From: Bdellovibrionota bacterium | GTDB lineage: Bacteria; Bdellovibrionota_C; UBA2361; JBGSMV01 | Assembly (NCBI GenBank): GCA_041739995.1 | Contig: JBGSMV010000047.1 | Coordinates: 261,682-325,681 of the forward strand | Direction of reading: 5' to 3' | Length of the DNA stretch: 64,000 bases | Program-made: the position numbers | In this document: one piece after another, positions 1 through 64,000 of the stretch | Numbering within the stretch: position 1 is the stretch's first letter | Layout: each line of letters begins with the position of its first letter

Positions 1-3000
1 AAGTGTTCTCAAACAGCGTGACAGCTCTACCCTAATATCTGGACCTCAAAGCGACTTGCTTCAGTGGGTTTCCCACAGGCTAGCAGTGGCTGTCGAATAA
101 CCAAGCTAAACGGCTGATAATACCGAGCTATCTTGCGCATAGCATTGTGGAAAAACTGAGGAAAACATCCACTAAGGTTGATAAAGCCCTGCTGAGGAGA
201 ATGTTACGACACAGCCGGCCTGCTTATGTACCGCTTGGTGATATCCGAATTCTTCGTAGTCGTAATGTTTGCCAAGGCGGTCAAGCACGTCGATAGCGGT
301 ATATAAGGTCGGAAAGCCGCAGATTCTGCGTTGGTCTTGGTCTTCGCAAATGTGCTCAAAAATGCGGCGCTTGTCCTGGGCTGCGATAGCGTTCAAGTAC
401 TGCCGGTCTCGCCCGGCCACCGCCTCAAGCCACTCGGCGTCAATTTCACGCGAGTCTCCAAACTGAGAGCCGATGTGAGCCATATCAACGCCGGCGATAA
501 TGCAGACTCGTCGTCCTTCGGATATCTCAGAAGCAATGGATTCGAAAAGAGCGCCGGCAAATGATTCATACTCGTCGTACTCGTTGGGCAGCCGTTGGTC
601 AGCGACATAGCGATGAAAGCTTCCCACCAGAATGGGACAAAACACAGCCTTGGACTGAACTGTGCGTTGAATAAATGGCAGCTGAAGTTCGAGCGAGTGC
701 TCTCGTCGATGCAGGAACTCATCTTCAAAACTTCTTGAGATTCCATAACGGTTTGCCAAGCGGTCTGAAAAATTCGTTGCGTTTGGCACGATGCCGAGCG
801 GCGTCAGGAAATCCTTGCGGGTGAGATGAAACACGTTCTTGCTATACTGATGCGAGGTACCAATCACTATGAACAGGTCGTGCGGAGCGCCTCGAAGGTG
901 TCGATATCCAGCGCCGTAGCAAGCCCCGCCGCGCTGATAGTCAATGTGCGGTGCGATCAGCCCCATCAAATTGTCGACCGTATGAGGACCGGGTGAGTTA
1001 GGTTCTGATTGCGATGGGGTTCCAAGATAGGAGTCGATTTCGTTTCCGAGCGCGAGCGGATCTGCGCTGTAGCTTAAGCCCGCGAGTGCCGCCGCTCGTT
1101 GTGACGAGGAGCTAAAGTCTTCTCGTATAGCTTGCTCGGCAGAGAAATATCGGGGAGAGGCTAAAAAGAGATGCTCGTCAAGAAGCTTGGCGAGTTGCTG
1201 AATAAGCTCTCTTTGTACCCCATGGCCACTAAACTTTTGAGCGATCTGATCTATTGAGAGCTGCCCTTCGAAGTGCGCCAGCAGGGGGGCGACGGCGGAT
1301 TTGAGAATGAGAGGCTGTGGAGAGATCCCGAGTGGGCACTGAATGACCAGCACTGGTTGGTCTTGGGACTGATCCATTCGAACGTCGATTGGCCAGCGAA
1401 GTTTGGGATAGTGCAGCGGGTCTGTCATTTGCCAACGCAGAATTTTGAAAAAATGCGCCCAAGAATGTCCTCTGAATAGGTGCGTCCTACCACTTCATCC
1501 AGGGCGCGAAGTGACCGCCGCACATCCTCAGAAATAATCTCCAGCGGAGAAGAGTCCGCTAGGTGCGAAAGTGCAGCAGATACCCAGTCGAGCGATTGCT
1601 CGATGCAGTTTCTTTGCCGCTCGTTGGTGACTACGTTATTAGCATGCGAAGTGTCGGGAAGACTGGATTTGACTTCTTCAACCAAGGCAGCGGTCAGTGC
1701 CTCAAGGCCCGACGATGTCTTTACCGAGACGTAGAAATTCTGGGCGCATACGGCTGAATCGCAAAGCACCTGCCCGATCGCGGCGGAGTTGAGATCGATT
1801 TTATTTACTACCATCCACACTTTTGCTCCGCGTGAGCGAATCTCTTCGGAGAGCGCCCTCCAGTCTTGATCTTGGCTAGCTGCATCAACGACCAGCAGTA
1901 CAATGTCGGCCCAGCCAATGCGTTCTCGGGCAAGCTCTATTCCCTTCTGTTCTACCGCATCTGTGGAGTTCCGAATCCCCGCTGAGTCACAAAAGACAAA
2001 GCGATAGCCGCCAATCATCATTTGCTCCTCAATCAAGTCACGGGTGGTTCCTGGCTGGGGGGTAACGATGGCGCGGTCTGACTTGAGAAGTTTATTGAGC
2101 AGGCTCGATTTTCCGACGTTGGCCTGACCACAAAGGAGAACACGGAATCCTTCACGCACCACGTGACCATAGGAGTAAGTTCGCAGTAGCTCGCCAAGAG
2201 AATCTTGAACTACTTTGAGGTGAGAGATCAGAGTGGTACGAGTGTCAGGTGAAATTCCTTCGTCTGGAAAATCTACACTAGCTTCGAGCTCAGCCAGGGT
2301 GTTGCGAAGTGGTTCTGCAAGCTCGTCCAGAGCGCTGCTAAATCTTCCCTTAAGATGATCGCCCGCAATCTTTAGCGCTTGCTCGCTGGTGGCACCAATC
2401 AGCTCTGCAATGGCCTCAGCTTGTACTAAGTCCATTTTTCCATTCAAGAACGCACGCAAGGTGAATTCTCCTGGTTCCGCTGGGCTGATGCCGAAGGCAA
2501 AAAGAGAGCGAAGTATTTTTTGAACTAATAGAGGGCTGCCGTGAAACTGAAACTCGGCAACGTCTTCCCCGGTAAAGCTATGTGGTCCCGGCATGAAGAC
2601 GGCAAGCGCGTGATCGATGACCTGCTCAGTTTTAAAGTCGATCAGGTCGCCAAAGACTAGAGTTCGCTCTAACGAAATCGGATCTTTTTTGCTGTGAAAC
2701 AACGACTTGAGTGCGGTTTTTGTTTTTGGTCCGCTGATGCGAATGACGGCCAGGCCTGACGGGTAAGGCGCGGTGGCGAGGGCTCCGATAGTCTGAGCTT
2801 TGCTGGTCGACGCGACAGGGGCTCCTGAGGCCTCTCCCTTTGCTGTGGACGACTTAGATGATGCGGGAGATCGAGTAGCCTTCATGAGTGCCGGGAATCC
2901 TACCCTACATTATGATTTTCGCCACAGGTCGAACCTAGGAGCCTGTCACGCAGGCACAGACGACGTCCCGCCGACTTGTTCCCCGAAGCTTTCCTATCCT

Positions 3001-63000: not shown

Positions 63001-64000
63001 CTCGTAAGCCAATATTAGAAGGACTAAGAAGTCTATCGGAGTGTGCCTAAGGCTGCTTTATGAGCCGCGCCGAATCAAACTTTAGGAACTTCGAGATCGA
63101 ATACATTCCCAAGGGTTGTGTACGAGATTCCACCAAGTCGGCCGATGGGTCGCAGCGCTGCCGCGTCAATTCGGCCGTTTTTTAGGACTCCATCTGCTCC
63201 GTGAAACATAAGAATTTTTCCGATGACCAGAGTGGTTGAGCCCGGAGAGCCATCCCCAATTTCAACCATCTGGTGCAGTGAGCATTCCATCTGAAGGGCA
63301 CACTCTTGTACTCGAGCGGGGCGCACTACGGTCGAAGCCAGAGGAGTAAGTCCGACTTTCTCCATCTCGTCTACGCCCTGCGGGTATGCCGCAGCGCAGT
63401 GGACTAGCGCTTCGGAGATCCATTCACTGGCACTGTTGACCACAAATTGGCCTGTTTCCTCGATATTGCTCAGAGTGTCCTTCTTTGATCCGTCTGGTTT
63501 ACGCGATATCGAGATGACTACGCATGGAGGATTGCTGGAGACGCCATTGAAGAAGCTAAAGGGGGCAAGATTGCCTATTCCCTTGGAGCTGACTGTTGAG
63601 ACGAAGGCGATTGGGCGTGGAATAATGCCACCAATTATTAATCGATAAGCCTCTTGTGGGGGGATCGTACGTACGTCGATGCTAATGAATGAGTTGTGGG
63701 GGGAGGTGATCTTGTCACCGGGCTTCCATGAACCAAGTTTGGGAGTCATAAGGGTCTTATAGCCTTGAATGGGGGTGAGGGGCAGGGGGGTCGCGGTGTT
63801 GTATTGACGGCCCTCCTTCGCACTTATCGCAATGCGATAAGTGCTTCGGCGGGGAGAGGGCCGAAGCTCGTAAGAGCGAAGGCGAGTCGCCACATCGAAC
63901 AACTCACAATCAAAACAACCAAACAAAGCAGAGGCAGAAACTCTTTCCTATTTTACTGGAATGGTTTCTCGGAAGATTCGATTCCAGACACGAATTGATG

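What a model noticed while it worked through the whole genome (the two positions that open the first line are those of the whole stretch)
1..64000. TAG is the most used stop codon (42%), and TAG not TGA is the GC-responsive stop across the order
Of 3288 complete genes 1382 (42%) end in TAG, 1044 (32%) in TAA and 862 (26%) in TGA at 52% G+C; the same holds for genes with Pfam or NCBIfam support and for ribosomal protein genes (23 TAG, 25 TAA, 4 TGA). This reverses the usual bacterial pattern in which TAG is the rarest stop and TGA rises with G+C. Samples of six genomes from six families of the order UBA2361 all have TAG > TGA, and TAG rises with G+C (28% at 31% GC to 50% at 58% GC). The bias is specific to stop positions. 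RF1, RF2 (with its usual +1 frameshift site CTT TGA C) and PrmC are present. The coordinates give the largest contig as a sample (121 TAG, 87 TAA, 67 TGA); the finding is genome-wide.
Evidence so far: Gene-table counts; independent count on ORFs >=250 aa: own 783 TAG, 568 TAA, 476 TGA of 1827; G034 43% TAG of 119, G025 37% of 195, G070 50% of 159, G081 35% of 85, G024 30% of 183 (TGA 11%), G003 28% of 86 (TGA 9%); intergenic trinucleotides TGA 18388 vs TAG 15165, off-frame in genes TGA 57371 vs TAG 23714; prfB frameshift site read directly; RF1 PET, RF2 SPF motifs; same script on 77 loci (701 kb) of other phyla: 404 ORFs, TGA 54%, TAG 28%, TAA 18%; in the 45-55% G+C class (81 ORFs) TGA 44%, TAA 32%, TAG 23.5%. 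The finding spans contig positions 1 to 325681; this window holds only 261682 to 325681 of it.
(Added by a program. Inside this text positions count along the whole contig: contig position 261,682 is position 1 of the stretch shown here. "Call 12" and the like, gene names such as g00115 and contig names such as C1 are that model's own, and its searches are not shown. The text may have been shortened before it was handed on; [...] marks where a part breaks off. The agent that wrote the report below was given it as the finding of a first reader that could run no searches.)

Follow-up and report, generated by a model that had tools for sequence, protein, structure and literature searches.

The report
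TAG-favouring stop codons in Bdellovibrio relatives
This uncultured Bdellovibrio-like bacterium ends more of its genes with TAG than with TAA or TGA; the habit is real, but its whole lineage and its cultured cousins share it, and published codon tables already show the same thing in a few other bacteria.

Summary
The counts are right. 3063 non-overlapping ORFs of at least 100 aa give 41.8% TAG, 31.8% TAA and 26.3% TGA at 52.4% G+C. The proportions hold across contigs and ORF lengths.

The wider claims hold only in part.
- **Order:** among 22 genomes of 20 families, 20 have TAG above TGA, but one is clearly reversed (14 TAG, 38 TGA).
- **Scope:** the bias is not specific to the order. 14 genomes from other orders of the same class pool to 34.9% TAG and 21.6% TGA.
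- **Cultured relatives:** published tables give Bdellovibrio, Bacteriovorax and Halobacteriovorax the same TGA/TAG ratio of 0.4-0.66.
- **Precedent:** Thermosynechococcus elongatus has 44% TAG, 33% TAA and 24% TGA.
- **G+C response:** TGA, not TAG, still responds to G+C. The slopes are +0.82±0.28 for TGA and +0.31±0.22 for TAG.

The TAG excess is confined to stop positions. TAG/(TAG+TGA) is 0.61 at stops against 0.44-0.49 in flanks and spacers, while an outside control shows no such gap. TGA falls with codon adaptation. Genome-wide TAG/CTAG avoidance also modulates stop usage. I found no sign of recoding.

The most likely cause is selection at termination against UGA that tolerates RF1-read UAG. 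This is a new member of a known kind and of modest interest.

The parts
1..64000 (.). Window as a sample of the genome-wide stop usage: 50 non-overlapping ORFs of at least 100 aa with 25 TAG, 11 TAA and 14 TGA
   Evidence: list of ORFs with their stops; G+C 51-53% throughout
46455..59331 (.). Run of nine consecutive ORFs that all end in TAG (46455-47144, 47196-47900, 48342-49796, 50046-51719, 51905-54406, 54415-56094 and 57339-58019 on +; 56464-57144 and 58066-59331 on -)
14582..15490 (+). Example of a TGA stop inside a 4-base overlap with the next gene's start (next ORF starts at 15487). In the window, 1425-2885(-) and 45781-46458(+) also overlap the next gene by 4 bases, and 30034-30810(-) by 1 base
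   Evidence: Genome-wide, the 318 stops that overlap the next same-strand ORF are 65% TGA

Best explanation
This is an ordinary standard-code genome with a lineage-wide habit of stop-codon choice. I infer two forces.

1. Selection at the termination step disfavours UGA, which is read only by RF2 and is generally the leakiest stop. The same selection tolerates or mildly favours UAG, which is read only by RF1. This would fit termination that leans on RF1, as proposed for Flavobacterium johnsoniae and in the codon-decoder adaptation idea of Wei et al. 2016.
2. Each genome's own avoidance of the words TAG and CTAG everywhere in its DNA pulls TAG stops down to a varying degree.

What is shown: the stop-specific TAG excess, the fall of TGA with codon adaptation, intact RF1, RF2, RF3 and PrmC, the absence of suppressor tRNAs, and the correlation with genome-wide TAG avoidance. 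What is inferred: that RF1/RF2 balance or UGA leakiness is the selective agent. No release-factor abundance or read-through was measured.
For: **Stop-specific excess.** TAG/(TAG+TGA) at stops is 0.614 in this genome, 0.624 in the order and 0.617 in the other orders. In 3' flanks and intergenic DNA it is 0.44-0.49. In 63 loci of other phyla, stops (0.389) equal flanks (0.392) and spacers (0.411). Measured against its 3' flank (29/31/40% TAA/TAG/TGA), this genome's stops are 32/42/26. The outside control gives 39/24/37 in flanks and 38/24/38 at stops.

**Per-genome offset.** The offset is positive in 31 of 36 class genomes, mean +0.19.

**Codon adaptation.** TGA falls from 31.2% in the lowest fifth of CAI to 17.5% in the top 5%. 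TAA rises from 29% to 41%. TAG stays at 39-44%.

**Highly expressed genes.** The 27 Pfam-confirmed r-proteins have 15 TAA, 9 TAG and 3 TGA.

**Context.** C after TGA is avoided (15.9%). TAG shows no +4 preference.

**Gene spacing.** In genes with a spacer of at least 30 nt, TAG is 44-46% and TGA 22-23%.

**No recoding.** ARAGORN finds no suppressor, Sec or Pyl tRNA, and no tRNA-Sec reaches Rfam's threshold. All 31 genomes searched have at least two RF-1-domain matches. Conserved-domain matches contain no in-frame stops apart from one TGA in a G020 RF-1-domain match on the contig that carries the prfB frameshift motif.

**Literature.** Wei et al. 2016 link TAG:TGA usage to the RF1:RF2 ratio and report UGA avoided in highly expressed genes of all 14 species they studied (passages read). 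In F. johnsoniae RF1 appears more abundant and usage is UAA 0.79, UAG 0.14, UGA 0.07 (passages read).
Against: **No direct measurement.** I have no measure of RF1 or RF2 level or of read-through.

**Genome-wide word forces clearly matter.**
- Among 22 class genomes with at least 30 TAG+TGA stops, stop TAG/(TAG+TGA) tracks the non-coding ratio (Spearman 0.64, p=0.001).
- The reversed genome G021 has 3 CTAG where 311 are expected.
- TAG and CTAG are somewhat less avoided in this class than in the control. Odds ratios are 0.63-0.66 against 0.51-0.54 for TAG, and 0.475 against 0.28 for CTAG.

**The contrast shrinks at matched G+C.** In the outside control at 45-55% G+C, non-overlapping genes also have TAG at or above TGA: 28.1 vs 23.7% of 114, and 36.4 vs 18.2% of 77. 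That control is small and mostly Campylobacterota.

**Other tests gave nothing.**
- There is no excess of back-up stops after TGA (0.248 in frame against 0.224 off frame).
- The prfB frameshift motif shows no link with TAG or TGA preference.

**Sampling limits.** Related genomes are not independent, samples are 20-120 kb per genome, and crude ORF calling slightly inflates TAG.
Confidence: 0.5

Rival explanations
1. The pattern is purely a property of DNA words: context-dependent mutation, repair, or avoidance of TAG and CTAG. In this lineage the usual genome-wide force against TAG is relaxed, so TAG stops rise. Release factors merely follow. This is the view of Ho and Hurst.
For: - Stop TAG/(TAG+TGA) correlates with the non-coding ratio across the class (Spearman 0.64, p=0.001, n=22).
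- G021 has CTAG 3 against 311 expected and TAG+CTA 510 against 2352 expected. It is the TGA-rich exception.
- TAG and CTAG odds ratios are higher in the class than in the control.
- Ho and Hurst 2021 report that stop trends are mirrored in 3' flanks across 644 bacteria (passages read).
Against: - TAG is still under-represented genome-wide (odds ratio 0.63) and rarer than TGA in flanks, spacers and off-frame positions. It exceeds TGA only at stops.
- The stop-minus-background offset is +0.19 on average, positive in 31 of 36 genomes, and about zero in the outside control.
- TGA declines with codon adaptation.
Confidence: 0.27
2. Gene architecture and method account for most of it. Few 4-base ATGA-type overlaps, which carry TGA, together with an ORF caller that slightly favours TAG make an ordinary genome look TAG-rich.
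For: - Overlapping stops are 65% TGA (318 genes).
- Overlaps make up 10.7-11.3% of genes in the class samples, against 17.6% in the whole control and 22.7% in its 45-55% G+C part.
- In the E. coli test, going by the totals (4 TAG called against 1 annotated), up to 3 of the 4 unmatched ORFs end in TAG.
Against: - Moving overlaps from 11% to 18% of genes would add only about 2 points of TGA, using the numbers.
- Non-overlapping genes here are 44-46% TAG, against 28-36% in the matched control.
- The same script was applied to the control.
Confidence: 0.08
3. UGA is on its way to another meaning or is often read through (as Trp, Gly or selenocysteine), so it is being purged from stop positions.
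For: TGA is the rarest stop and falls in highly adapted genes. Korkmaz et al. 2014 proposed this for TAG-rich species; I know that only as quoted by Wei et al. 2016.
Against: - TGA still ends 26% of genes.
- RF2 is intact, with SPF, GGQ and the UGA-dependent frameshift site.
- No tRNA has anticodon UCA, no tRNA-Sec reaches Rfam's threshold, and there is no tRNA-Pyl.
- Hundreds of RF-1, S8 and ABC-transporter domain matches across the class contain no in-frame stops, apart from one TGA in a G020 RF-1-domain match on the contig that carries the prfB frameshift motif.
Confidence: 0.03

Closest known systems
Cultured Bdellovibrio, Bacteriovorax and Halobacteriovorax, from the stop-codon table of Trexler et al. 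2023, Sci Rep, supplementary file MOESM11 (rows seen)
   Same: TAG exceeds TGA with the same ratio. TGA/TAG is 0.66 in B. bacteriovorus HD100 (1.54 TAA, 0.88 TAG, 0.58 TGA per thousand), 0.59 in B. exovorus, 0.49 in Bacteriovorax stolpii and 0.41 in Halobacteriovorax marinus. Here it is 0.63 in this genome, 0.60 in the order and 0.62 in the other orders. Submitters name the relatives' records Bdellovibrionota, Oligoflexia or Bdellovibrionales.
   Different: In the cultured species TAA is still the top stop (51-64%). In this genome TAA is only 32% and TAG is the top stop at 42%. Silvanigrella (1.4-1.6) and Oligoflexus (3.8) in the same table prefer TGA. I did not establish how the window's lineage relates to these genera.
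Thermosynechococcus elongatus BP-1 and T. vulcanus (same table)
   Same: TAG is the most-used stop, with nearly identical proportions: 0.98 TAA, 1.31 TAG and 0.71 TGA per thousand, which is 33/44/24%. This genome has 32/42/26%.
   Different: It is an unrelated phylum (Cyanobacteria). I could not test whether the excess there is stop-specific.
RF1-leaning termination in Bacteroidetes such as Flavobacterium johnsoniae (RNA 2024, PMC10798248, passages read; phylum mean TGA/TAG 0.90 in Trexler et al.)
   Same: TAG exceeds TGA while prfB keeps its frameshift site. This is the proposed mechanism I lean on.
   Different: F. johnsoniae is AT-rich and 79% TAA. RF1 above RF2 was measured there by RNA-seq and ribosome profiling and was not measured here.
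The general bacterial pattern, or 'TAG paradox' (Povolotskaya 2012; Ho and Hurst 2021, 2022; passages read)
   Same: TAA falls and TGA rises with G+C here too, with slopes of -1.13 and +0.82. The TAG slope is not significant.
   Different: TAG lies about 10-15 points above my outside control (34.7-41.8% against 24%), and the excess is not mirrored in 3' flanks.

Membership tests
Standard bacterial code (table 11) with two-factor termination | RF1 with a PxT recognition motif and GGQ | tested here: met
   C41 ORF carries PET and GGQ. PET occurs in 12 of 18 class RF1s and in 14 of 63 outside RF1s, so it is not special.
Standard bacterial code (table 11) with two-factor termination | RF2 with SPF and GGQ, made through the +1 frameshift at CTT TGA C | tested here: met
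   C64:190625-190640 reads AGGGGGTTTCTTTGAC and lies about 600 bases upstream of the RF-1 domain.
Standard bacterial code (table 11) with two-factor termination | No tRNA that reads a stop codon | tested here: met
   None of the 42 tRNAs has anticodon CUA, UCA or UUA. No tRNA-Sec match reaches Rfam's gathering score. The assembly is 91% complete.
Standard bacterial code (table 11) with two-factor termination | PrmC and RF3 present | tested here: met
   PrmC_N at C41:26605 (68 bits). prfC at C64:207755-209359 (628 bits, over the cut-off).
UGA-reassigned codes (tables 4 and 25) | RF2 lost and TGA almost absent from gene ends | tested here: not met
   RF2 is present. TGA ends 807 of 3063 ORFs.
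Bacteria with TAG above TGA at gene ends (TGA/TAG below 1, as in the Trexler et al. 2023 tables) | TGA/TAG ratio below 1 over the whole gene set | tested here: met
   807/1281 = 0.63. All 12 large contigs have TAG above TGA.
RF1-dominant termination (as proposed for F. johnsoniae) | RF1 more abundant or more active than RF2 | not testable with these tools
   No expression or proteome data were laid on prfA and prfB, which lie on different contigs.

The most novel reading that the evidence does not exclude
In this small phylum of Bdellovibrio-like bacteria the TAG excess sits only at real stop codons and is not mirrored in flanking DNA, unlike the general bacterial pattern used to dismiss release factors. 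The lineage would then be a natural counter-example in which termination-level selection (RF1-leaning decoding, UGA avoided) visibly overrides word-level forces. Internal contrasts such as the almost CTAG-free, TGA-rich G021 would let the two forces behind the 'TAG paradox' be separated.
Probability: 0.3. Interest if true: 0.5.

Novelty: new member of a known kind. Interest (0 to 1): 0.27.

Why it matters
Stop-codon choice affects read-through, gene-prediction priors and the ease of recoding. The flat, low use of TAG in bacteria is an open puzzle.

This genome adds a well-documented TAG-rich lineage with cultured relatives in which the cause could be measured. It also shows two separable influences within one clade: a stop-specific offset and genome-wide TAG/CTAG avoidance.

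It does not change what is known. TAG-rich bacteria, including one with the same proportions, are already in published tables.

Tried and rejected
- **prfB frameshift and stop preference.** The exact pattern RGGRGGNNNCTTTGAC matched in 84 of 124 class genomes. Where RF positions were known it lay about 600 bases upstream of the RF-1 domain. It is kept in the TGA-rich G021 and G012, absent in family f2 (0 of 7), and absent in most other orders whether TAG-rich or TGA-rich. I found no link.\n- **RF1 peculiarities.** PET is not specific to the class. Eight class-typical residues were found, for example T in HTST where 59 of 63 outside sequences have A. None could be tied to codon reading.\n- **Back-up stops after TGA.** No clear excess.\n- **Orthologue stop switches.** G000 against G001 gave only 37 usable pairs and G003 gave 11. 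Of 24 changes, 18 were TAA-TAG, 5 TAG-TGA and 1 TAA-TGA. That is too few and biased towards conserved genes.\n- **Motif after TAG.** None, apart from the repeat that supplies 20 stops.\n- **Selenocysteine or suppressor tRNAs.** None.\n- **Literature sources that did not help.**\n - The mBio 2025 prfB supplement holds TGA proportions only.\n - The Ho and Hurst 2021 supplement lists no per-genome table among its contents; I read part 1 of 4.\n - Korkmaz et al. 2014 is not held, so its Table 2 of TAG-rich species is known to me only through Wei et al. 2016.\n- **Searches for prior reports on this lineage.** 'Bdellovibrio' with 'stop codon usage' found one paper, which is not about this. Family f17 of the order was not sampled.\n- **Tree.** I did not build a tree or run a phylogenetically controlled test.
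Full report
**What was checked**

The finding is genome-wide and the window is only a sample, so I worked on the whole assembly. It has 81 contigs, 3.81 Mb and 52.4% G+C. I used a simple ORF caller: the longest ORF from ATG, GTG or TTG, at least 100 aa, with greedy removal of overlaps.

On 50 kb of E. coli K-12 this recovers 41 of 45 annotated gene ends. Going by the totals (4 TAG called against 1 annotated), up to 3 of the 4 unmatched ORFs end in TAG, so the method inflates TAG slightly.

**The observation in this genome**

- Of 3063 ORFs, 1281 end in TAG (41.8%), 975 in TAA (31.8%) and 807 in TGA (26.3%). TAG is 42.3%, 42.9% and 44.0% at cut-offs of 150, 250 and 400 aa.
- Contig C64 gives 114 TAG, 84 TAA and 62 TGA. 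The window gives 25, 11 and 14 of 50.
- All 12 contigs with at least 60 ORFs have TAG above TGA, with no heterogeneity (p=0.55).
- The Pfam-confirmed S10-spc-alpha cluster has 27 ribosomal proteins with 15 TAA, 9 TAG and 3 TGA. EF-Tu and Adk end in TAG, EF-G and RpoA in TGA, and SecY in TAA.
- RF1 (PET, GGQ), RF2 (SPF, GGQ, site AGGGGGTTTCTTTGAC), an ArfB-like protein, PrmC and RF3 are all present.
- A repeat that begins TAGGAGTCTGTG accounts for 20 TAG stops.

**Relatives**

The order holds 91 genomes in 21 families. I sampled 21 relatives from 20 families at 48-120 kb each. The stretches were chosen on contigs known to be long, so they are not random, and family f17 was not sampled.

- Pooled, the samples give 778 TAA, 607 TAG and 365 TGA (44.5/34.7/20.9%).
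- Including this genome, TAG exceeds TGA in 20 of 22 genomes and is the top stop in 7.
- G021 is clearly reversed (14 TAG, 38 TGA, p=0.001). G012 has 30 against 37. G042 and G026 are near ties.
- Around ribosomal protein S8 in 30 order genomes, the counts are 122 TAA, 65 TAG and 26 TGA.

**The trait is wider than the order**

A search at phylum level returned only genomes of one class. That class holds 124 genomes. Fourteen genomes from 13 families of its other orders pool to 281 TAA, 226 TAG and 140 TGA (43.4/34.9/21.6%).

Submitters name the relatives' records Bdellovibrionota, Oligoflexia or Bdellovibrionales. In the species table of Trexler et al. 2023 (supplementary rows seen), the values per thousand codons are:

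| Species | TAA | TAG | TGA |
|---|---|---|---|
| Bdellovibrio bacteriovorus HD100 | 1.54 | 0.88 | 0.58 |
| B. exovorus | 1.65 | 0.85 | 0.50 |
| Bacteriovorax stolpii | 1.93 | 0.72 | 0.35 |
| Halobacteriovorax marinus | 1.91 | 0.78 | 0.32 |

These give TGA/TAG ratios of 0.41-0.66, the same as 0.60-0.63 here. Silvanigrella (1.4-1.6) and Oligoflexus (3.8) in the same table prefer TGA.

**G+C response**

| Set | TAA slope | TAG slope | TGA slope |
|---|---|---|---|
| 22 order genomes | -1.13±0.24 | +0.31±0.22 (p=0.17) | +0.82±0.28 (p=0.008) |
| 36 class genomes | not quoted | +0.33 (not significant) | +0.76 (p=0.002) |
| Outside control | not quoted | +0.09 | +1.05 |

TGA is therefore still the stop that answers to G+C. 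TAG is raised at all G+C values.

**Outside control**

I ran the same script on the 80 RF1 loci found in other genomes.
- The 62 loci that were not relatives (997 kb, 862 ORFs) give 38.7% TAA, 23.9% TAG and 37.4% TGA.
- At 45-55% G+C the figures are 41.5/25.4/33.1% (n=260).
- I first misfiled L199 (73% G+C) as a relative. From then on I moved it to the outside set, which then has 63 loci.
- Class samples against the outside set give chi-square 98. This genome against the matched G+C class gives p=1.4e-6. Related genomes are not independent.

**Where the excess sits**

TAG/(TAG+TGA) at stops is 0.61-0.62 in this genome, the order and the other orders. It is 0.44-0.49 in 3' flanks and intergenic DNA and 0.29-0.36 off frame.

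In the outside set, stops (0.389), flanks (0.392) and spacers (0.411) agree. That matches what Ho and Hurst 2021 report for bacteria in general (passages read).

The offset is positive in 31 of 36 class genomes, with a mean of +0.19.

Within this genome, TGA falls from 31.2% to 17.5% from the lowest to the highest codon adaptation. TAA rises from 29% to 41%, and TAG stays at 39-44%. C after TGA is avoided (15.9%), while TAG shows no context preference.

**Things that weaken the contrast**

- Stops that overlap the next gene are 65% TGA (318 genes). Such overlaps are rarer here: 10.7-11.3% of genes in the class samples, against 17.6% in the whole control and 22.7% in its 45-55% part.
- Among non-overlapping genes the matched control also has TAG at or above TGA: 28.1 vs 23.7% of 114, and 36.4 vs 18.2% of 77. 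This genome has 44-46% TAG and 17-23% TGA.
- That control is small and mostly Campylobacterota.

**Word-level forces matter as well**

Stop TAG/(TAG+TGA) tracks the non-coding ratio across 22 class genomes (Spearman 0.64, p=0.001). G021 has 3 CTAG where 311 are expected, and 510 TAG+CTA where 2352 are expected. The class as a whole avoids TAG and CTAG somewhat less than the control does.

**No recoding**

No tRNA reads a stop, and there is no tRNA-Sec or tRNA-Pyl. All 31 genomes searched have at least two RF-1-domain matches. Domain matches across the class contain no in-frame stops, apart from one TGA in a G020 RF-1-domain match on the contig that carries the prfB frameshift motif.

**Comparison with what is known**

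- Trexler et al. 2023 give mean TGA/TAG of 3.13 for 12,758 bacterial species, 0.90 for Bacteroidetes and 1.08 for Cyanobacteria (passages read).
- Thermosynechococcus elongatus BP-1 has 0.98 TAA, 1.31 TAG and 0.71 TGA, which is 33/44/24%. Desulfovibrio vulgaris RCH1 has 42% TAG (rows seen).
- Wei et al. 2016 argue that TAG-rich species simply have more active RF1 (passages read).
- TAG as the top stop at mid G+C, and TAG above TGA in Bdellovibrio-like bacteria, are therefore both already in print as data. My searches found no paper that discusses this lineage.

**Verdict**

The pattern is real, and it is a lineage-wide codon-usage habit rather than an order-specific reversal. TAG is not the G+C-responsive stop.

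- **Best explanation (0.5):** selection at termination against UGA that tolerates RF1-read UAG, modulated by each genome's TAG/CTAG avoidance.
- **Main rival (0.27):** word-level forces alone.

This is a new member of a known kind, of modest interest.

Noticed in passing
Loci L095-L098 (G021:C4:1-95000, 80 kb sampled): This relative almost lacks the word CTAG: 3 found against 311 expected. TAG+CTA is 510 against 2352 expected. It is also the one genome of the order with clearly reversed stop usage (14 TAG, 38 TGA). That suggests a CTAG-directed restriction or repair system.
   Followed up: partly
G000 contig C41:~23730-24822 (outside the window) and loci L183-L262: The RF1 gene itself ends in TAG, the codon only RF1 reads, in this genome and in 13 of 17 relatives. 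Outside the lineage RF1 genes end in 31 TGA, 25 TAA and 7 TAG of 63. This may be shared ancestry or a feedback feature.
   Followed up: no
G000, whole assembly: ARAGORN at default settings reports no tRNA-Ser gene, while 5 tRNA-Leu and 42 tRNAs in all are found. Infernal with the Rfam tRNA model also finds 42 matches, which I did not type by anticodon. The assembly is 91% complete, so losing every Ser tRNA by chance would be odd.
   Followed up: partly
G000, 20 gene ends genome-wide (none located in the window by me): A repeated element that begins TAGGAGTCTGTG[AC] provides the TAG stop of 20 ORFs.
   Followed up: partly
Class-wide pattern search: The prfB frameshift motif, as an exact pattern, is missing in all 7 genomes of family f2 and in most genomes of the other orders. 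It is kept in most families of the order. Loss or a variant site could not be told apart without the sequences.
   Followed up: partly
Loci L221 and L259 (Desulfovibrio-named records): 12 TAG, 14 TAA and 6 TGA of 32 ORFs. This agrees with 42% TAG for Desulfovibrio vulgaris in the published table and points to another TAG-rich lineage.
   Followed up: no
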